A stretch of DNA of 64,000 bases from Gemmatimonadales bacterium (GTDB taxonomy: Bacteria > Gemmatimonadota > Gemmatimonadetes > Gemmatimonadales > GWC2-71-9): NCBI GenBank assembly GCA_037045245.1, contig JBAOHR010000009.1:75241-139240 (forward strand), in the 5' to 3' direction. The position numbers and the translations under genes were made by a program. Each line of letters begins with the position of its first letter. Position 1 is the stretch's first letter. Shown one piece after another: positions 46,874-55,239 of the stretch. Under the pieces are notes generated by a model. The model was not told where the DNA came from. It was given only the letters and a program-made list of their open reading frames with translations, and ran no database searches.

Positions 46874-47332
46874 ATGCGTACTCCCCTGCTCTGCACCATC
46901 CTCCTGGCGGCCTGCGCGGGCGGCGAGAAGGCCCCCGCGACTGGCGACTCGACCCCACCCGCTGCCCCGGCGCCACCGCCGGCGCTGACCGCAGCCCAGG
47001 TGACCGGCAGCTGGAGCGGCACCTCCAAGCTGGCCGGGACCGACTCGGTGGTCAGCACGTGGACCGCCACCACGACCAGTGACAGCACCGGCGTCTTCGC
47101 CGAGCCGGGGCAGAAGGACGTCAAGTACACGACGGTTCTCTCGGGCGACAGCATGATCGTGACCTCCGAGCCCCACGTGGCCCCGATGATGGGAAAAGCG
47201 AAGGTCATGTGGGTGTCTGTTGGCCGGCTCGATGCCAGCGGGGCCCTCGTGGGCACCGGCGTGACGATGCTGGCCGAGAAGCACGACTCGGTGCTCGGAC
47301 GCGTTACCTGGTCGGCGACCAAGAAGCCCTGA
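46874..47332 (+). CDS. Small lipoprotein, unknown function
   Basis: Intact 152-aa ORF with a lipobox (LLCTILLAACAGG) and a Pro/Ala linker. I recognise no domain. Confidence 0.6.
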   Translation: MRTPLLCTILLAACAGGEKAPATGDSTPPAAPAPPPALTAAQVTGSWSGTSKLAGTDSVVSTWTATTTSDSTGVFAEPGQKDVKYTTVLSGDSMIVTSEPHVAPMMGKAKVMWVSVGRLDASGALVGTGVTMLAEKHDSVLGRVTWSATKKP

Positions 47333-47348
47333 AGCATTCTGGAACGTG

Positions 47349-47389
47349 AACGGCGGCCCCCCACTCCGATGAGTGGGGGCCGCCGTTTT
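47349..47389 (+). terminator. Rho-independent terminator
   Basis: AACGGCGGCCCCCCACT ccgatg AGTGGGGGCCGCCGTT followed by TTTG: a 16-bp GC-rich stem (one bulged C) with a short U tract, 17 nt after the lipoprotein stop. The left flank (GGAACGTGAACGG) resembles the GTGAACG heptads at 55245. Confidence 0.8.
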
Positions 47390-47432: not shown

Positions 47433-49394
47433 ATGGCCCTCTCCCCCGAATTCATCGCCCTCCAGGAATCCCTCCTCGGCCGCTATTCGCTCGAGCGCGA
47501 GCTCGGTCGGGGCGGCATGGGGACGGTCTATCTGGCGCGAGACGTGAAGCTCGACCGCCCCGTGGCCATCAAGTTCCTGCACGCCGAGCTCGCCGCTGAC
47601 ACCGCGGCCCGCTCCCGCTTCCTGCACGAGGCCCGGACCGCCGCGCGGCTCGCCCACCCCCATGTCGTGCCGATCTTCGCCGTCGAGGCCGAGGGATCCC
47701 GACCGTTCCTGGTGATGGCGCTGATCGATGGCGAGACGCTGGGGGCCCGACTCCGCCGGCGCGGGGCACTCGGCCCCGACGAGGGGGAGCGGTTGCTGCG
47801 CGAGATGGCGTGGGCTCTCGGCTATGCGCACGCGCAGGGTGTCATCCACCGCGACCTCACGCTCGAGAACGTCCTCATCGAGCGCGACTCGGGGCGGGTG
47901 CTACTGGCCGACTTCGGCCTCGCGACCGCGCGCGAGACGGTCGAGTCGCAGCCGCGGTTCGGCACGCCGGGCTACCTGGCCCCTGAAGTGATTCGCGGCG
48001 AACCGGCAACGACCTCGAGCGATCTCTACGCCCTCGGCGTGGTGACCTGGCACGCGCTCGCCGGACGGGCACCGTTCGAGGCCGACACCGCCGGCGCGCT
48101 CCTCGCCAAGCACCTCGTGCAGCAGGCGCCATCGCTCGCGCCGCTGGCGCGCGGTGCCTCGCGACGGCTGGTCGCTGCGGTGGAGCAGTGCCTGGCGAAG
48201 GACGCCGAGGCTCGACCCGCCGACGCCGCGGCATTGCTCGCCCTGCTCGAGCGCGCGCCGGAACCGGTGGCGATCGCACCGGCATTGCGGCACTGGTTCA
48301 CCCGATGGGAACGGTTCCGGCCCGTCTACGCGCTGGCCACCCCGATCCTCGCGCTGCAGACCTGGCTGCTCTTCCTCAGCGCATCAGAGTTTGCGTCGCG
48401 AAGTCTGCTCGTCGCCGCGGTCGTCTCGGCGGTACTCACCGTGACGGCCATTCCGCTGCTGGCGCACCTCGCCTTCGAGACCCTCGCCCTGCGCGAGTTG
48501 CACCGCGTCGGCTTCGGCATCGCCGACATCCGCGCGGCGTATCCGCACTGGCGTGACACGCTCCTGCGCGAGCGCCGGCAGGAGGGACTTCCGCCGCTCC
48601 CCGGGCGCGTCGTCCTCGACCTTACCGTGATCGGTGCCGTGGTGCTCGCGCTCTTCATGTTCGTCTGGTACCCCAACGCCGACCGCTGGTATGATGCCAA
48701 CGGACATGCGTTCTATATCAAGAACCTCCTGATCGAGACGTCGACCAGCCTCTACCCAGCCGTCCTGATCGGCGTCGGGATCGGCTTCGCCTCACCCGGC
48801 TTCCGGATCGCGCCGAACGGCCGCTTCCGCCAGCTGGTCGAGCGCTTCTGGCAGTCGCGCCTCGCGGCCGGGATCACGAAGCTCGCGTCGCTGTGGCAGC
48901 CGCAGCGTGTCCTCGCCGCGTCGACGCTCCATCGCAACACCGAACTCGTCCTCGGGCTCGCGGTCGACGATCTCTGGCACGCCATCCCCGCCGCGCTCCG
49001 CGAGGGACTCGGCGATGTCCCCGCCCTGGCGCACACGCTGCAGGCGAGTGCCGGGGAGCTGCGCGACATTGCCGACCACCTCCGCGAGAGCGAGCGCGAT
49101 ACCGACCACGACGAGGCAGAGCAGCGGCGACTGATCGCGTCGCGCGAAGCGGTGGAATCGCGGCATCGCGAGGCAGTCGCCACGCTCGAGCGGTTGCGCC
49201 TGCAACTGCTCCGGCTCGTGGCCTCGAAGGAGCAGAGCCAGGAACTCACCGCCCACCTCGCGGGCGCGCGTGCCCTGGAGCAGTCGCTGCTGGTCGACCT
49301 CGCCGCGCACAACGAAGTGCGGGTGCTGCTCGGCCGCCCGGTGCGCCGCCCTGACACCGGCTCGAGCCCGACGCCGACCCCCAGGGCCGCGTGA
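47433..49394 (+). CDS. Membrane Ser/Thr protein kinase, paralogue 1 (Hanks-type kinase + about 4 TM + conserved unknown C-terminal helical domain)
   Basis: ORF 47373..49394, with the start moved to ATG 47433 because the upstream part lies inside the terminator. Kinase motifs: LGRGGMGTVYLA, VAIKFL, HEARTAA, HRDLTLENVLI, LADFGLA, GYLAPEV, DLYALGVV. TM helices follow (ALATPILALQTWLLFL, LVAAVVSAVLTVTAIPLLA, VLDLTVIGAVVLALFMFVW, LYPAVLIGVGIGF). The C-terminal blocks are LHRNTELVLGLAVDDLWHAIP and LERLRLQLLRL. Confidence 0.88.
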   Translation: MALSPEFIALQESLLGRYSLERELGRGGMGTVYLARDVKLDRPVAIKFLHAELAADTAARSRFLHEARTAARLAHPHVVPIFAVEAEGSRPFLVMALIDGETLGARLRRRGALGPDEGERLLREMAWALGYAHAQGVIHRDLTLENVLIERDSGRVLLADFGLATARETVESQPRFGTPGYLAPEVIRGEPATTSSDLYALGVVTWHALAGRAPFEADTAGALLAKHLVQQAPSLAPLARGASRRLVAAVEQCLAKDAEARPADAAALLALLERAPEPVAIAPALRHWFTRWERFRPVYALATPILALQTWLLFLSASEFASRSLLVAAVVSAVLTVTAIPLLAHLAFETLALRELHRVGFGIADIRAAYPHWRDTLLRERRQEGLPPLPGRVVLDLTVIGAVVLALFMFVWYPNADRWYDANGHAFYIKNLLIETSTSLYPAVLIGVGIGFASPGFRIAPNGRFRQLVERFWQSRLAAGITKLASLWQPQRVLAASTLHRNTELVLGLAVDDLWHAIPAALREGLGDVPALAHTLQASAGELRDIADHLRESERDTDHDEAEQRRLIASREAVESRHREAVATLERLRLQLLRLVASKEQSQELTAHLAGARALEQSLLVDLAAHNEVRVLLGRPVRRPDTGSSPTPTPRAA

Positions 49395-51340
49395 CGACTC
49401 CCGCCGACGACACGCGCGCGTTCGAGCGGCTGCAGGAGTCGCTGGCCGGCACCTGGTCGATCGAGCGGGAGCTCGGCCGCGGCGGCATGGGCACGGTCTA
49501 TCTGGCTCGCGACGTGGCGCTCGACCGGCCGGTCGCGCTGAAGGTGCTGCACCCTTTACTGGCGGCTGATCCGGAGCAGCGCGAGCGTTTCCTCCGCGAG
49601 GCGCGCACCGGGGCCAGGCTCTCGCATCCGCACATCGTCCCGATCTATGCCGTCGAGGCGCACGACGACCTCGTCTACTTCGTGATGGGACTGATCGATG
49701 GCGAAAGCGTCGGCGATCGACTCCGCCGCGAGGGACCGTTGCGCGGCGAGGACGCCGAACGGATCCTGCGCGAGGTCGCCTGGGCGCTTGCGTATGCCCA
49801 CGCGATGGGGATCGTCCACCGCGACGTCACCATCGAGAACATCCTGCTCGAGCGGCAGACCGGCCGGGCCGTCCTCGCCGACTTCGGCATCGCCGCCGCC
49901 GTCGATCGTGACGGCGAGGAGCCGTTGCTCGGCACGCCATCGTACATCGCCCCCGAGGTGATCCAGGGCGCCCAGGCCACCGCCGCGAGCGACCTCTACG
50001 CGCTCGGCATCACCGGCTGGACGATGCTGGTCGGGCACACGCCGTTCATGGCCGACGACACGCCGGCGCTGCTCCTCAAGCAGCTGACCGAGCCGGTACC
50101 GCCGCTGGTCCGCGCGGCGCCGGGTACGTCTTCACGACTCGCGCGCGCACTCGAGGCGGCAATGGCGAAGGACCCCGCCGAACGCCCGGATGGCGCCCAG
50201 GGGTACCTCGCGCTGCTTGCCGGCGACGGGGAGAGCGTGGCGCTGGCCGAGCCACTCCGCCGCTGGCTGAACCGCTTCGAACTCGTCCGTCCGTTCTACG
50301 CCCTCGGGATGACGGTGATGGCGTTCACGACGTTCATGGCAATCGGAATCCGCCTGAATTCTGAGGCCCTCGCGGCTCCTTTCATCGCAATTGCCATTCT
50401 CGCGAGTCCGGTCCTCGTCTCCCTCGGCCTCATCCACTTGGGAATCGAACTGACGGCATTGCGGCGCCTCGCCCGCGCTGGCTACACGCACGGCGACCTG
50501 GTGCAAGCGGTGCAGCGGGCGCGGCAGGCCGCCCAGCGCGTCGGCCCACGTCGCCCCTCGTTGCTCGGTCGCGTCGTCCATGACATCGCCTGCCTCGGCG
50601 GCATCATCACCGTGCTGCTGATGGCCGGGCTGGCCGAGCTGCTGCTCCCCTACTCGCCGGACCGCCAGGGCTGGCGTCACCTCGGACAGTTCCTCCATCT
50701 CCTGCAGACCACCAGCCAGTACGCCTATCTCGTCTTCCTGTCAGGCCTCGGCTTCAACTTCCTGGTCCCCGCCTTTCACTTCAAACCCAATGGGCTCTGG
50801 GCCAGGCTTCGTGACGGCTTCTGGCGCTCGGCGCTGGGCGCCGGGATGCTCAAGCTGGCCTCGTTCGGGCTCGGCAAGTCCGAGGCGACCGACCGCACCT
50901 TGCACCGCCCCACCGAGCTGGTGCTCGACCTCGCGATCGAGGAGATGTGGCGGGCGCTGCCGCCAAGCGCGCGCGAAGGGACGTCGGACCTCCCGAAGAT
51001 CGCGCGCGCACTGAGCGACCGCGTGGCCGAGGCGCGCGAGCTGCGCGCCGCGTTGCAGGGGCCGCGGGTGCGCCGCTCGGCCGAGGCCGATGCGCTCGAT
51101 GCACGCCTCGCGACGAGGCAGGAACGTGCCGTGATCGCACTCGAGCGACTGCGCATGGTGCTCGGCCGGGTCGGTGGCGCAGCCGCGATGAGCGGAGAGC
51201 TCACCGCTAAGCTGCACGACGCCCGTGCCCTGGAGCAGGAGCTGCTGCTCGAACTCGGTGCCCATGCGGAGGTCAAGCGGCTGCTGCGGCAAGGGCGGGC
51301 GCCGAGCAAGAGCCTCACGCCGAAGGCGACGCCGGCGTGA
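49391..51340 (+). CDS. Membrane Ser/Thr protein kinase, paralogue 2
   Basis: Intact 649-aa ORF. The GTG start overlaps the paralogue 1 stop (GTGA). The layout is the same: LGRGGMGTVYLA, VALKVL, HRDVTIENILL, LADFGIA, SYIAPEV, TM region, LHRPTELVLDLAIEEMWRALP, LERLRMVL, LTAKLHDARALEQELLLELGAHAEVKRLL. Confidence 0.88.
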   Translation: MTTPADDTRAFERLQESLAGTWSIERELGRGGMGTVYLARDVALDRPVALKVLHPLLAADPEQRERFLREARTGARLSHPHIVPIYAVEAHDDLVYFVMGLIDGESVGDRLRREGPLRGEDAERILREVAWALAYAHAMGIVHRDVTIENILLERQTGRAVLADFGIAAAVDRDGEEPLLGTPSYIAPEVIQGAQATAASDLYALGITGWTMLVGHTPFMADDTPALLLKQLTEPVPPLVRAAPGTSSRLARALEAAMAKDPAERPDGAQGYLALLAGDGESVALAEPLRRWLNRFELVRPFYALGMTVMAFTTFMAIGIRLNSEALAAPFIAIAILASPVLVSLGLIHLGIELTALRRLARAGYTHGDLVQAVQRARQAAQRVGPRRPSLLGRVVHDIACLGGIITVLLMAGLAELLLPYSPDRQGWRHLGQFLHLLQTTSQYAYLVFLSGLGFNFLVPAFHFKPNGLWARLRDGFWRSALGAGMLKLASFGLGKSEATDRTLHRPTELVLDLAIEEMWRALPPSAREGTSDLPKIARALSDRVAEARELRAALQGPRVRRSAEADALDARLATRQERAVIALERLRMVLGRVGGAAAMSGELTAKLHDARALEQELLLELGAHAEVKRLLRQGRAPSKSLTPKATPA

Positions 51341-53328
51341 CGGCGCGCGCCGAATTCATCGCGCTGCAGCAGGCGCTCCTCGGCCGCTACTCGCTCGAGC
51401 GGGAGCTTGGCCGCGGCGGGATGGGGACGGTCTACCTGGCGCGCGACCTCCGCCTCGAGCGACCGGTCGCGATCAAGGCACTGCACCCGGCACTCGCCGC
51501 CGACCCCGAGGCGTGCGCGCGCTTCCTGCGCGAGGCACGCACCGCCGCCGGGCTGGCCCACCCGCACATCGTGCCGATCTACTCCGTCGAGGAATCCGAC
51601 GCGGCACCGCTGCTGGTGATGGCCATGATCGATGGCGAGACGCTCGGCGCGAGGCTCCGGAGCCGCGGACCGCTCCCCGCCGACGACGCCGCGCGCGTCC
51701 TCCGCGAGATCGCCTGGGCGCTCGACCACGCCCACGCCCACGGCGTCGTGCACCGCGACCTCACGGTCGACAACATCCTGCTGGAGCGCCACACCGGCCG
51801 CGCGCTGCTCGGCGACTTCGGACTCGCCCAGCGCAGCGACACCATCGACGTGGGGCCGGTGTTCGGCACGCCGGGCTACCTGGCCCCCGAACTGATCCGT
51901 GGCGATGCGGCCACGCCGGCCAGCGATCTCTACGCCCTCGGCGTCGTCGGCTGGGCAACGCTTACCGGCAAGCTTCCCTTCGCGGGCGATGCCTCGGCGG
52001 TGCTTGCGAGGCACCTGATGCAACCCGCCCCGGCCCTGGCCCCGCTCGCGCACGGGGCGTCGCCGCGGCTGGTGGCGGGCATCATGCAGTGCCTGGCAAA
52101 GGACCCCGATGCGCGCCCTGCGAGTGCCACCGCGTTCCTCGGGCTCGCTCGAGCGCGCACCGGAGCCGATCGCGATTGCGGCACCGCTCCGAGGGGTGGT
52201 TCACTCGTTGGGAGCGGATCGCGCCGATCTACTCAATCGTCGACGCCGTTGCTCGCGCTTGCCAGACCTCGCTGCTGACCTACGCGCTACTACCGGACGG
52301 TGGACCAGCGCATTCTCGTCGCGATGATGGTCAGCACCGCGCTGTCGCTCTCTCTGCGATCCCCCTCGCCGCCCACCTGCTGTTCGAGTTCGTCGCAGCT
52401 CGCGGCGTCTTGCGCGGCCGAAGGATTCACGTTGGCGGACGTTCGGGCAGCGCTTCCCGCACTGGCGCGCCGACCGAGCGCCTCCTCCAGGAGCGGGAGG
52501 GGCTGCGACCGCTCGCGAGCCGGGTGATCCTCGACTTGACCGTGGTCTTCGCCATCACGATCCTGGTCGACATCCTCGATCATCGAGCCGAACATCGGCC
52601 TGCTTGAAGTCACGTCTCGGAGGCGGTCCGCACCTGGGTGCTCGGCCTCACCGGCTTCATGCCCGACGCTCTACCTCTTCACGATGATCGGCGTCGGCGT
52701 CGGCTTCGTCTCACCCGGCTTCCGGATTCCTGCGCAGGGGCGGGCGCGCCGGCTTCCTCGACCGGCTCTGGAGCTCGCTCGGTGGCCCAGCGCTTCGCCG
52801 GCGCTTGCCGGGCGAGGCCAGCGTACCCTCGCCGCGAACGCGTCGACGCTGCATCGCCCCACCGAAATGGTGCTCGGCCTGGCGGTCGACGATCTCTGGC
52901 GCGCCATCCCCGAGGCCCTCCGCGCCGACCTCGGCGACGTCCCGGCGCTGGCGCACACGCTCGAACAGGGCGCAACGGAGTTGCGCGGGCTGATCACGTC
53001 GCTGCAGGAGAGCGAGGCGAGCGATGGCGTCGCGGATGCCGATCGCGCGGCGATCGTCGAGACGCGCCTCGGCCTCGAGAGCGCGGCACCGCGAGACGAT
53101 CGCCACCCTCGGAGCGGGTGCGGCTGCAACTGCTGCGGCTGCTCGCCGACCGCCAGCAAACGGGCGCGCTCACGCAGCAACTCGAGGCCGCGAGAGCCAT
53201 CGAGGCGTCGCTCCACCGCGACGTCGCGGGGCACGCCGAGGTGCGCCGGCTGCTGCATCGGCCGCGGCGTGCCTGCCGCCCCGGGGACGCCGACGCCCAC
53301 GCCGCCGTCGGAGCGCGCCGCCGCATGA
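51337..53328 (+). pseudogene. Membrane Ser/Thr protein kinase, paralogue 3; reading frame broken at least 7 times as written
   Basis: The kinase domain is intact in ORF 51337..52278 up to ...ASATAFLGL. After that the homologous sequence hops between frames. ERAPEPIAIAAPLRG lies in ORF 52109. WFTRWERIAPIYS...AIPLAAHLLFEF...LASRVILDLTVVFAITILV lies in ORF 51225..52607. AEGFTLADVRAALP lies in ORF 52300. GVGVGFVSPGFRI...LHRPTEMVLGLAVDDLWRAIP lies in ORF 52684. ERVRLQLLRLLADRQQTGALTQQLEAARAIEASL lies in ORF 52638. The tail ...TPTPTPPSERAAA is back in ORF 52684. The stop overlaps the paralogue 4 start (ATGA). Confidence 0.8.
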
Positions 53329-55239
53329 GCACCACCACCGCCCACGACGACGACTTCCTCGCGCTGCAGGATGCGCTGGCCGGGCAATGGTCGCTCGAGC
53401 GCGAGCTCGGGCGGGGCGGGATGGCGACGGTGTACCTGGCGCGCGACGTCTCGCTTGATCGACCGGTTGCTATCAAGGTGCTCGCCACCGAGCATGCGGC
53501 CGACCCGGCGATGCGGGCCCGCTTCGAACGCGAGGCGATCACCAGCGCGCGGTCTCTCGCACCCGCACATCGTGCCGACGTACGCGGTTGCCGAGGCGGC
53601 GGGGCGGCCGTACCTCGTGATGGGCTACATCGACGGCGAGTCGCTGGCGCAGCGGCTGCATCGCGCCGGGCCGTTGCCGGGTGCCGAGGGTGAGCGCGTC
53701 ATCCGGGAGGTCGCCTGGGCGCTCGGGCACGCGCATGCCACCGGCGTGCTGCATCGTGACGTCACGCTCGACAACATCCTGCTCGAACGGAGCACCGGCC
53801 GCGCGGTGCTGGTGGACTTCGGCATCGCCGCGCTGGTCGATGGCGACGGCGATGGCACCCTCCTCGGGACGCCGGCGTATCTGGCGCCCGGAAGTCATTC
53901 AGGGTGAGCCGGCGTCGCGGGCGAGTGACCTCTACGCCCTGGCCACGGTGGCGTGGGCCACCTTTGCCGGGCGGCTCCCCTACCATGGCGAGGACAGCGC
54001 CGCCGTGCTGCTCCAGCAGGTGACGGCCTCGGTGCCGTCGCTCGCGGCCGCGGCACCCGGGGTGCCCCGCCGGATCGTCGCGGCTATCGAGGGAGCGCTC
54101 GCCAAGGCTCCAGTGGAGCGCCCCACGACGGTGGAGGCGTGGATCGGTTCGTGGGAGGGGCATCAGGTGGCAGTGCCTCTCGCAGCGCCACTGGAGCGCT
54201 GGCGCGGGCATTGGAGGCAGGTACGGACGTTTTATGCATTCGCCGCGACGATTACCGCCATGTTCGGGGGAATGGCGGGTGGAGCCGGGGGTTACACCGA
54301 CAACATCGCCCTCTGGATGGCGTACCTACTCATGTTCGCGGTGCCGGGCTTAGTGGTGGCAGCAGCGATCCACGTCGCGATGGCCGCCAACCAGCTCCGA
54401 CGCCTTGCACGATCAGGGTTCGGCATTGAGGATCTTCGACTGACCCTCCGTCGTGCCGATCCGGAATCGTCGCGGACCCCCGTCCCACTGGTGGGCCGGC
54501 TCACCTCGGACGCGGTCGTGATCTCCCTGATTGTCTATCTCGCCATGGCCGTCCATGAGTCCGCCTGGAACCGGACTGGCGGTATGACTGGCTGATTCAG
54601 GACTTCTATCGTGAAGTGGCGAGGTGGGCCTTCGTCGGATTCTGGACGGGCCTTGGGCTCTCGGTGCTGACCCCGACCCGCCCGATGCTCCGCCCCGGCA
54701 CACGCGAGGGGATCCGGCGCGCATTCTGGAACTCCCCGCTCGGCGCGCTCTGGTTCGGCCTGGCGCGGGTCGGGCTCGGCAAGCGGATCGCCGCCGCCGA
54801 GACACTGCACCGCCCGACCGAGCTGGTGCTCGACCTCGCCATCGAGGAGCTGTGGCGCGCCCTGCCGGCCGGCGCGCGCCGGGAGGCGGCCGAGCTGCCG
54901 TCGGTGGCGCGGGACCTCCGCCGCCGGGTGGCCTCGTTGCGCGCCATTGCGGGCCACTTCGGCGACCCGAGTCGCGACTCGCCCGCCGAGGCGGCGCTGC
55001 GGGCGAAGGTGAGTGGGCGCATCACCGCCGCGCTCACGGCGCTCGAGCAGCTCCGGCTTCAGCTCCTGCGGCTCGACGACGCGACGCTGCCGACGGGGGC
55101 CCTCACCGCGCAGCTGCATGACGCCCGCGCGCTGGAGCGGGAGCTGCTGACGGACCTCGGCGCGCACCACGGGATCGGGCGGTTGCTGCGGCGCGGCCCG
55201 GTGCGGCGGTCGCCGGGGATGACGCCGACGCCGGCGTAG
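53325..55239 (+). pseudogene. Membrane Ser/Thr protein kinase, paralogue 4; frame broken at least 3 times as written
   Basis: The N-terminus lies in the frame of ORF 52638 (MSTTTAHDDDFLALQDALAGQWSLERELGRGGMATVYLARDVSLDRPVAIKVL). ORF 53371 follows (LSHPHIVPTYAV...HRDVTLDNILLERSTGRAVLVDFGIA...TPAYLAP), then ORF 53681 (EVIQGEPASRASDLYALATVAW...TM region). ORF 54616 carries the rest (ARWAFVGFWTGLG...LHRPTELVLDLAIEELWRALP...LEQLRLQLLRL...LTAQLHDARALERELLTDLGAHHGIGRLL...TPTPA). Breaks are near 53555, 53890 and 54570. Confidence 0.8.

What the first reader, a model, noticed from the sequence alone, without database searches (positions are those of the whole stretch)
47847..47870. All four kinases replace the invariant catalytic-loop lysine: HRD-(L/V)-T-(L/I/V)-(E/D)-N instead of HRD-x-K-x-x-N
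The catalytic loops read HRDLTLEN (47847-47870), HRDVTIEN, HRDLTVDN and HRDVTLDN. In Hanks-type Ser/Thr kinases the consensus is HRD(L/I)KPxN, and the Lys contacts the ATP gamma-phosphate. Tyr kinases use HRDLAARN and compensate with Arg at +2.

Here the Lys is Thr, the Pro is aliphatic and position +2 is acidic, so neither known solution applies. Every other catalytic element is retained: the Gly-rich loop GRGGMG, the VAIK Lys, the alpha-C Glu, DFG and APE.

The substitution is conserved across four paralogues, so it is not a random lesion. Either a different residue supplies the charge, or these enzymes have altered chemistry or substrate, or they are regulated pseudokinase-like proteins.
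Basis: partly seen in the sequence, partly recalled or inferred. Interest (0 to 1): 0.6.

Follow-up and report, generated by a model that had tools for sequence, protein, structure and literature searches.

The report
Membrane kinases with threonine replacing catalytic lysine
Four neighbouring membrane protein kinases of a Gemmatimonadales bacterium really do carry threonine where kinases normally have a catalytic-loop lysine, but the same swap turns out to be frequent in some other bacteria, so it is a conserved and unstudied variant, not a unique oddity.

Summary
Four tandem + strand Hanks-type kinases read HRDLTLEN, HRDVTIEN, HRDLTVDN and HRDVTLDN. The Thr aligns with Lys140 of M. tuberculosis PknB.

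The change is inherited, not a lesion. In 114 full-length relatives Thr is invariant, and one further member has Ser. On a tree they form one clade nested among Gemmatimonadota kinases of the same 650-aa architecture that keep HRDVKPDN. All other catalytic residues are conserved. Kinase-domain dN/dS is 0.05-0.06.

No conserved basic residue was gained with the change. There is no Arg or Lys at D+4 and no Lys in the P+1 loop.

The lysine is not invariant in bacteria. In 81 Myxococcota genomes I counted 170 Thr-type against 1,104 Lys-type loops (13%). In 60 Actinomycetota genomes the count was 0 against 232. I found no paper describing the variant.

Best reading: these are functional, probably active, four-pass membrane Ser/Thr kinases with a retuned acceptor site. 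Activity is inferred, not shown.

Kinases 3 and 4 are broken in this assembly by 26 one- or two-base insertions. These look like assembly errors.

The parts
47433..49394 (+). Kinase 1, 653 aa from the ATG at 47433 (a GTG at 47373 would give 673 aa). Hanks kinase domain aa 1-275, four hydrophobic membrane segments aa 298-450, helical C-terminal module aa 460-634.
   Evidence: ORF list. Pfam PF00069 157 bits. Homologues of 651-653 aa cover 97% of the query. AlphaFold model pLDDT 83.9. Hydropathy.
47847..47870 (+). Catalytic loop HRDLTLEN of kinase 1. The Thr codon ACG is at 47859-47861.
   Evidence: Sequence, translation. Aligned to the PknB loop HRDVKPAN.
49391..51340 (+). Kinase 2, 649 aa. Its start overlaps the kinase 1 stop (GTGA). 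Catalytic loop HRDVTIEN at 49817-49840.
   Evidence: PF00069 160 bits.
51337..53328 (+). Kinase 3. Catalytic loop HRDLTVDN at 51751-51774. The reading frame is broken after about 52140 in this assembly.
   Evidence: tblastn with the intact orthologue from genome G107. DNA alignment.
53325..55239 (+). Kinase 4. G-loop GRGGMA, catalytic loop HRDVTLDN at 53752-53775. It is read in four frame pieces in this assembly.
52140..54558 (.). Stretch with 26 uncompensated 1-2 nt insertions relative to two related genomes. Probably an assembly or consensus error patch.
   Evidence: The same sites appear against G107 and G233. All extra bases are in the window and none in the relatives, and they are not in homopolymers. 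Nucleotide identity here is 88%, against 81% in kinases 1-2, where gaps are compensated or multiples of three.
48750..49391 (+). C-terminal helical module of kinase 1 (conserved T-x-H-R-x-T-E...W motif). No Pfam family and no match to a solved fold.
   Evidence: No Pfam hit. 355 clusters in 1.84 billion representatives. Second model pLDDT 87.7, best Foldseek E-value 2.2.

Best explanation
The four genes form an operon-like array of paralogous, four-pass membrane-anchored Hanks-type Ser/Thr kinases. Both the kinase domain and the helical C-terminal module face the cytoplasm.

They belong to a clade found so far only in Gemmatimonadales. That clade arose from Lys-type ancestors of the same architecture (HRDVKPDN) by one Lys-to-Thr change in the catalytic loop. 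Part of the clade later lost the following Pro.

The domain is still a working nucleotide-binding catalytic domain, most likely an active but kinetically altered protein kinase. I infer the following steps:
- The Thr hydroxyl takes over hydrogen bonding to the gamma-phosphate and the catalytic Asp.
- The metal ions and the beta-3 Lys carry the charge.
- Co-changes next to the acceptor site (APE-1 Ser to Ala, APE+2 Ala to Ile, DFG-2 Val to Leu) retune substrate handling.

Shown here: the residue state, its single origin, the conservation and purifying selection, and the lack of a conserved compensating basic residue. Inferred: that phosphotransfer still occurs, and how.
For: - Among the best 120 homologues, 116 of 118 readable loops have Thr, one Ser, one Lys. 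In a 114-sequence set Thr is 114/114, against Lys 39/39 in sister proteins.
- Tree of 99 kinase domains: 57 Thr plus 1 Ser form one clade (SH-aLRT 98). Its sister has HRDIKADN, and the group is nested within Lys-type proteins of the same family.
- Distant holders of the same C-terminal module all have HRDVKPDN/EN. At 50% clustering there are 21 Lys-type and 4 Thr-type full-length clusters.
- The beta-3 Lys, alpha-C Glu, HRD, Asn, DFG, GT, APE and the RP Arg are invariant or at least 90% conserved.
- dN/dS against the G107 orthologues is 0.059 and 0.053 in the kinase domain. That is below both other regions in kinase 1 and below the membrane region in kinase 2.
- The model is confident and matches PknB at TM 0.89.
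- The four-gene array, with the same four loops, is intact in another species of the genus.
- Thr-type loops are kept in many other bacterial lineages, which argues that the state is compatible with function.
Against: - No activity data exist for any Thr-type Hanks kinase that I could find.
- Published work holds that a Lys or Arg at this site is a feature of all protein kinases and stabilises the transferred phosphate (PMC4702295; PMC4718504).
- No conserved basic residue was gained with the change.
- Strong conservation of the ATP site is also expected for an ATP-binding switch that does not transfer phosphate.
- Model coordinates could not be inspected, so no geometry supports the hydrogen-bonding idea.
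Confidence: 0.55

Rival explanations
1. The proteins are ATP-binding pseudokinase-like switches. The domain binds nucleotide and changes conformation or scaffolds partners at the membrane, but transfers phosphate very poorly because the gamma-phosphate-positioning Lys is gone.
For: - No compensating basic residue is present.
- The literature describes a key role for this Lys.
- Kinase 2 has no Ser/Thr in its activation loop before the GT motif, and kinase 4 has one. Both loops are acidic, so regulation by loop phosphorylation is unlikely in them.
Against: - The catalytic Asp, Asn, DFG Asp and beta-3 Lys are invariant over a clade that has diverged to 45% identity.
- By the standard three-residue definition this is not a pseudokinase (PMC12599244).
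- The acidic, Ser/Thr-poor activation loops are shared with the Lys-type sisters.
Confidence: 0.22
2. The chemistry or substrate has changed. The enzymes could be ATPases or kinases acting on a non-protein or unusual acceptor. This would resemble the atypical RIO and Bud32 kinases, which carry Ser or Thr at the same position.
For: - The RIO1 signature LVHADLSEYNTL has Ser at this position (PMC2564912). That Bud32 has Thr there is from my own knowledge.
- Small-molecule kinases of this fold generally lack the Lys (PMC4702295).
- The clade-defining co-changes cluster around the acceptor site.
Against: - The full protein-substrate apparatus is kept: activation segment, GT, APE, alpha-F Asp and the RP Arg.
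- Bud32 models score only 41.7 bits against cut-offs of 125-188.
- The nearest solved folds are PknB and StkP, not RIO or Bud32.
Confidence: 0.13
3. The active site is completed in trans. A Lys or Arg from a partner, for example another of the four co-expressed paralogues joined through the helical C-terminal module, reaches into the site.
For: - The four paralogues are translationally coupled, and the array is conserved in the genus.
- The long C-terminal helices are suited to oligomerisation.
Against: - There is no direct evidence.
- Other genomes hold only one to three copies.
- No conserved surface Lys/Arg specific to the clade was seen in the kinase domain.
Confidence: 0.05
4. The Thr is a sequencing or assembly artefact, or the genes are decaying pseudogenes.
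For: Kinases 3 and 4 contain 26 frame-breaking insertions.
Against: - Thr is encoded in all four copies and in over 110 independent public sequences.
- Kinases 1 and 2 are intact and under strong purifying selection.
- The insertions are one-directional, are absent from two relatives and lie outside the loops, so they look like consensus errors.
Confidence: 0.02

Closest known systems
PknB/StkP-type bacterial Hanks Ser/Thr kinases (M. tuberculosis PknB, PDB 1MRU/1O6Y; S. pneumoniae StkP)
   Same: Same fold (Foldseek TM 0.89, E about 1e-18). 33-36% identity. Same G-loop, beta-3 Lys, alpha-C Glu, HRD, Asn, DFG, GT and APE. Also membrane-anchored with a cytoplasmic kinase domain.
   Different: Thr instead of the catalytic-loop Lys, and an aliphatic residue instead of Pro in the window's copies. 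Four membrane passes and a cytoplasmic helical module instead of one pass and extracellular PASTA domains. Below the NCBIfam PknB_PASTA cut-off (255 against 450 bits).
Lys-type Gemmatimonadota kinases with the same C-terminal module (HRDVKPDN; for example loci L123-L142)
   Same: Same length of about 640-680 aa, same membrane region and same C-terminal HRxTE module. They are the phylogenetic sisters of this clade.
   Different: They keep Lys-Pro in the loop. They have SPE instead of APE, Ala instead of Ile at APE+2 and Val instead of Leu at DFG-2.
Tyrosine kinases and JAK2 JH2 (HRDLAARN type)
   Same: The residue at the PKA-K168 position is not Lys.
   Different: They supply Arg or Lys two residues downstream (PMC4718504). 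Here that residue is Glu, Asp or Ala. About 12 of the 121 Thr-type bacterial kinases found do have Arg/Lys there, including one elsewhere in this genome (HRDLTPRN).
RIO and Bud32 atypical kinases
   Same: Ser or Thr at the same catalytic-loop position (RIO1 signature LVHADLSEYNTL, PMC2564912; Bud32 from my own knowledge).
   Different: They lack the activation segment and the APE/GHI substrate-binding apparatus that is fully present here. Sequence scores are far below their family cut-offs.
Thr-type Hanks kinases of Myxococcota and Melainabacteria with Lys in the P+1 loop (KGKxxYMxPE)
   Same: Same HRDxT(P)xN loop.
   Different: 38 of 121 carry Lys at the PKA-T201 position, an apparent Lys/Thr swap between two touching residues. 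None of 60 Lys-type kinases does. The window's clade keeps Thr at both positions.

Membership tests
Hanks-type (eukaryote-like) protein kinase, Pfam PF00069 | Profile score above the curated cut-off | tested here: met
   153-160 bits against a cut-off of 31.7 for kinases 1-3. Kinase 4 scores 75 bits on one frame piece.
Hanks-type (eukaryote-like) protein kinase, Pfam PF00069 | Gly-rich loop, beta-3 Lys, alpha-C Glu, HRD Asp, catalytic-loop Asn, DFG Asp | tested here: met
   All are invariant or at least 90% conserved in 62- and 112-sequence alignments.
Hanks-type (eukaryote-like) protein kinase, Pfam PF00069 | Basic residue (Lys, or Arg at D+4) in the catalytic loop | tested here: not met
   Thr at D+2 and Glu/Asp at D+4 in all four copies. 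Thr in 114/114 clade members.
Hanks-type (eukaryote-like) protein kinase, Pfam PF00069 | Activation segment with GT...APE, alpha-F Asp and alpha-H/I Arg (protein-substrate lobe) | tested here: met
   G177, T178, P184, E185, D197 and R261 are invariant or nearly so.
Hanks-type (eukaryote-like) protein kinase, Pfam PF00069 | Bilobal kinase fold | tested here: met
   AlphaFold pLDDT is about 90 over residues 1-275, apart from the activation loop at about 160-180. Foldseek TM 0.89 to PknB.
Hanks-type (eukaryote-like) protein kinase, Pfam PF00069 | Phosphotransfer to Ser/Thr of proteins | not testable with these tools
   Needs an enzyme assay.
Pseudokinase (standard sequence definition) | Loss of at least one of the beta-3 Lys, HRD Asp or DFG Asp | tested here: not met
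   All three are invariant. Definition as in PMC12599244.
Tyrosine-kinase-type catalytic loop | Arg (or Lys) at D+4 replacing the D+2 Lys | tested here: not met
   D+4 is Glu, Asp or Ala across the clade.
RIO / Bud32 atypical kinases | Family profile above cut-off, and no activation segment or APE | tested here: not met
   Best Bud32 model scores 41.7 bits against cut-offs of 125-188. The activation segment and APE are present.
PASTA kinase (PknB/Stk1 equivalog, NF033483) | Full-length equivalog score and PASTA repeats | tested here: not met
   255 bits against a cut-off of 450, on the kinase domain only. No PASTA domain in Pfam.

The most novel reading that the evidence does not exclude
Thr-type Hanks kinases may be a large, so far undescribed class of bacterial protein kinases that has arisen many times. 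It would have at least three active-site solutions:
- Lys moved to the P+1 loop (GT to GK, a swap of the two residues that touch in PKA).
- Arg or Lys at D+4, as in tyrosine kinases.
- No basic residue at all, as in the window's Gemmatimonadales clade and in Micromonospora.

If the third type is fully active, phosphotransfer to protein Ser/Thr does not need the catalytic-loop positive charge. That would contradict a textbook generalisation.
Probability: 0.25. Interest if true: 0.6.

Novelty: new variant of a known kind. Interest (0 to 1): 0.4.

Why it matters
The catalytic-loop Lys (PKA K168) is treated as a hallmark that separates protein kinases from small-molecule kinases of the same fold. 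It is not part of the three-residue test used to call pseudokinases, so Thr-type kinases pass as ordinary in every automated annotation.

These data show a well-conserved clade that lost the Lys without any visible replacement. They also show that the same loss makes up about one in eight Hanks kinases in Myxococcota.

If such enzymes are active, the assumed requirement for this charge is too strict. If they are not, a sizeable share of annotated bacterial Ser/Thr kinases are really non-catalytic.

Either result is cheap to obtain: one autophosphorylation assay on kinase 1, its Thr143Lys variant and a Lys-type sister.

For this window the finding is otherwise ordinary. It is a lineage-specific expansion of membrane kinases of unknown input and targets.

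Tried and rejected
- **Compensating basic residue in cis.** I contrasted 114 Thr-type with 39 Lys-type sisters and with 21 own-genome paralogues. No Lys or Arg was gained in the kinase domain against the sisters. R171 and R265, which stood out against own-genome paralogues, are not clade-specific against the true sisters. The G-loop Arg (GRGGMG) is shared with Lys-type relatives and is not enriched among other Thr-type kinases.
- **Model geometry.** The structure tool returns no coordinates, so distances to the gamma-phosphate site could not be measured.
- **Literature.** Full-text searches for the strings HRDLT, HRDIT, HRDVT and HRDxT found no kinase paper. The bacterial kinase atlas and the pseudokinase review do not mention the variant. 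Perez et al. 2008 on the myxobacterial kinome is not held.
- **C-terminal module.** No Pfam family and no PDB fold match, with best E-value 2.2. Its function stays unknown.
- **Gene neighbourhood.** The neighbours are a SpoU methylase, a dehydrogenase, a TonB-dependent receptor, a TetR regulator and a molybdopterin oxidoreductase. There is no FHA or PP2C partner.
- **One mistyped Lys pattern.** It had one N too many and gave 0 of 81 genomes. It is useful only as an accidental negative control.
- **Low sensitivity of the DNA pattern.** It requires CAC for His and exactly DFG. Only 13 of 151 Gemmatimonadota genomes matched, although the protein family is in 161 of 401. Pattern counts are therefore valid as Thr:Lys ratios, not as absolute numbers.
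Full report
**What is there**

The window is 70% G+C. It lies in a 3.55 Mb, 12-contig genome whose closest proteins are named Gemmatimonadales or Gemmatimonadota.

Four + strand genes run head to tail between 47433 and 55239, with 4-nt start/stop overlaps. Six-frame translation finds the four catalytic loops:
- HRDLTLEN at 47847-47870
- HRDVTIEN at 49817-49840
- HRDLTVDN at 51751-51774
- HRDVTLDN at 53752-53775

Kinases 1-3 score 153-160 bits on Pfam PF00069, against a cut-off of 31.7. A DNA pattern for this loop followed by DFG matches three times in the window and never in 100 shuffles.

In HMMER alignments to solved structures, the Thr aligns with the catalytic-loop Lys of PknB (HRDVKPAN) and StkP. 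The following Leu aligns with their Pro.

Three corrections apply:
- Kinase 4 has GRGGMA.
- Kinases 3 and 4 are not continuous ORFs in this assembly.
- The four copies are paralogues and count as one inherited state.

**Anatomy**

Kinase 1 most likely starts at the ATG at 47433, giving 653 aa. Homologues are 651-653 aa and cover 97% of the longer reading.

An AlphaFold model built on 62 sequences has mean pLDDT 83.9. It has a confident kinase domain (residues 1-275) and a low-confidence activation loop. Its best structural matches are M. tuberculosis PknB chains (TM up to 0.89, E about 1e-18).

Four hydrophobic segments follow, at about 298-316, 325-343, 393-411 and 432-450. The 41-residue loop between the second and third holds eight Arg/Lys. 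This puts the kinase domain, that loop and the C-terminal module all in the cytoplasm. Only about 8 and 20 residues are exposed outside.

The C-terminal helical module has no Pfam family. A second model of the membrane and C-terminal part (pLDDT 87.7) matches no solved structure, with best E-value 2.2. The module is rare: 355 clusters among 1.84 billion representatives.

The neighbouring genes give no functional hint and include no FHA or PP2C gene.

**Origin of the Thr**

Among the 120 best full-length homologues, 116 of 118 readable loops have Thr, one has Ser and one has Lys.

The same C-terminal module occurs in 161 of 401 sampled genomes of the phylum, in 64 of 147 genera. The more distant holders all read HRDVKPDN or HRDVKPEN, followed by GTPEFMSPEQ. 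At 50% clustering the full-length module-bearing proteins are 21 Lys-type and 4 Thr-type.

A tree of 99 kinase domains places 57 Thr-type and the one Ser-type sequence in a single clade (SH-aLRT 98). Its sister has HRDIKADN. The group is nested, with support 95, among the Lys-type proteins.

One Lys-to-Thr change therefore founded the clade, and AAG to ACG is a single base change. The Pro was lost later in part of the clade, because HRD(L/I)TP(E/A)N members are common.

No member of the 114-sequence set has reverted to Lys.

A species of the same genus (G107) has the same four-gene array, intact, with the loops HRDLTLEN, HRDVTIEN, HRDLTLDN and HRDVTLDN.

**Is the domain still under selection for catalysis?**

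The following residues are invariant or at least 90% conserved across sequences that have diverged to 45% identity:
- the beta-3 Lys and the alpha-C Glu
- His, Arg and Asp of HRD, and the loop Asn
- DFG, the GT of the P+1 loop and APE
- the alpha-F Asp and the RP Arg

Against the G107 orthologues, dN/dS is 0.059 (kinase 1) and 0.053 (kinase 2) in the kinase domain. It is 0.28-0.34 in the membrane region and 0.12 and 0.03 in the C-terminal module. Branch lengths inside the Thr clade are similar to those of the Lys-type sisters.

This is not a decaying domain. By the usual three-residue definition it is also not a pseudokinase (PMC12599244).

**Is the charge supplied from elsewhere?**

I contrasted 114 Thr-type with 39 Lys-type sister sequences. 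The columns that switch together with K143T in the kinase domain are:
- V158L, two residues before DFG
- S183A (SPE to APE)
- A187I
- P243S
- A269L

None is a gain of Lys or Arg.

The residue at D+4 is Glu, Asp or Ala, so the tyrosine-kinase and JAK2-JH2 solution (PMC4718504) is absent. This acidic residue is simply the canonical one of HRDxKP(E/D)N.

The P+1-loop residue equivalent to PKA Thr201 stays Thr. The G-loop Arg of GRGGMG is shared with Lys-type relatives and is not enriched in other Thr-type kinases. It remains a possible substitute, in the manner described for ROP5B (PMC4718504), but it is not specific to the clade.

I could not inspect model coordinates, so no geometric test was possible.

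**How unusual is Thr at this position?**

The literature I could reach states that all protein kinases have Lys or Arg here (PMC4702295). Full-text searches for the motif strings found no kinase paper. The 2025 atlas of bacterial Ser/Thr kinases does not discuss it.

The genomes say otherwise.
- **All prokaryotes.** The hits came from Myxococcota, Actinomycetota, Cyanobacteria, Melainabacteria, Planctomycetota, Deinococcota, Acidobacteriota, Chloroflexota, Proteobacteria and Gemmatimonadota. All 121 matches lie in frame, in typical kinase context.
- **Myxococcota.** In an evenly drawn sample of 81 genomes the Thr pattern matched 170 times, in 51 genomes. The same pattern with a Lys codon matched 1,104 times, so Thr-type loops are 13%. 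A mistyped, out-of-frame version matched nothing.
- **Actinomycetota.** In 60 evenly drawn genomes the counts were 0 Thr and 232 Lys. Micromonospora has 2 Thr-type among 17.
- **This genome.** There are 21 Lys-type and 5 Thr-type Hanks kinases. The fifth Thr-type is an unrelated HRDLTPRN / DWG protein.

The variant is therefore recurrent and lineage-dependent, not unique. Nearly all other Thr-type loops keep the Pro (111 of 121). Thr followed by an aliphatic residue is much rarer, although it also occurs in a few Myxococcota.

**A by-product: three kinds of Thr-type kinase**

Of the 121 Thr-type kinases, 38 have Lys at the position of PKA Thr201 (KGKxxYMxPE instead of GTPxYMxPE). None of 60 Lys-type kinases examined does.

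This therefore looks like a swap that keeps a Lys in the site.

About 12 others have Arg or Lys at D+4. The remainder, including the window's clade and the Micromonospora group, have neither.

That is a lead, not support.

**Interpretation**

The best-supported reading is a functional catalytic domain, probably an active Ser/Thr kinase with altered kinetics or acceptor handling.

I infer that the Thr hydroxyl replaces the Lys as hydrogen-bond partner of the gamma-phosphate and the catalytic Asp. The same position holds Ser in RIO1 (signature LVHADLSEYNTL, PMC2564912) and Thr in Bud32 (my own knowledge).

The rivals cannot be excluded by computation:
- an ATP-binding switch with little transfer
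- RIO/Bud32-like altered chemistry
- completion of the site in trans

The RIO/Bud32 reading is weakened because the whole protein-substrate lobe is retained, and Bud32 models score far below their cut-offs.

**Kinases 3 and 4**

Against G107 and G233, the window carries 26 extra stretches of 1-2 bases between 52140 and 54558. They fall at the same sites in both comparisons, there are no deletions, and they are not in homopolymers. This region is otherwise more similar to the relatives (88%) than kinases 1-2 are (81%). In kinases 1-2, gaps are compensated or multiples of three.

This pattern fits an unpolished consensus stretch and not gene decay.

**Verdict**

This is a new, uncharacterised variant of a known kind of enzyme. 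The open question it raises is modest but testable: whether protein phosphotransfer needs the catalytic-loop charge.

Noticed in passing
window 52140-54558: There are 26 uncompensated 1-2 nt insertions relative to two related genomes, breaking kinases 3 and 4 into several frames. All are one-directional, none is in a homopolymer, and the region is otherwise highly similar to the relatives. This is probably an assembly or consensus error patch.
   Followed up: partly
loci L003-L122 (all-prokaryote scan): 38 of 121 Thr-type Hanks kinases, mostly from Myxococcota and Melainabacteria, have Lys at the PKA-Thr201 position of the P+1 loop (KGKxxYMxPE). None of 60 Lys-type kinases does. This looks like a Lys/Thr swap between two touching active-site residues. 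Most of these 38 also lack a recognisable GxGxxG loop under my pattern.
   Followed up: partly
own genome C10:295372-295986 (outside the window): A fifth, unrelated Thr-type kinase in this genome reads HRDLTPRN with DWG instead of DFG. The Arg at D+4 is the tyrosine-kinase-like arrangement.
   Followed up: no
Gemmatimonadota genomes G004, G007, G025, G041, G056, G073, G094, G120, G131; also L094, L018: A second Thr-type family reads HRDLTPFNVFVCE...KLGDFG and has no recognisable APE motif. It is present in several genera of the phylum and in Vicinamibacterales.
   Followed up: no
window 48258-49391 and the equivalent parts of kinases 2-4: The four-pass membrane region plus helical C-terminal module (conserved T-x-HR-x-TE...W) has no Pfam family and no PDB fold match. 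It is confined to about 355 clusters, and all named ones are Gemmatimonadota.
   Followed up: partly
protein P0116 (sister of the Thr clade): Its loop is HRDIKADN: Lys is kept but Pro is already replaced. This could be an intermediate state, or an independent loosening of the loop before the Lys was lost.
   Followed up: no
window 46874-47332: A small ORF with a lipoprotein-like signal (LLAACAGG) lies directly upstream of kinase 1 on the same strand. It has no Pfam family.
   Followed up: no
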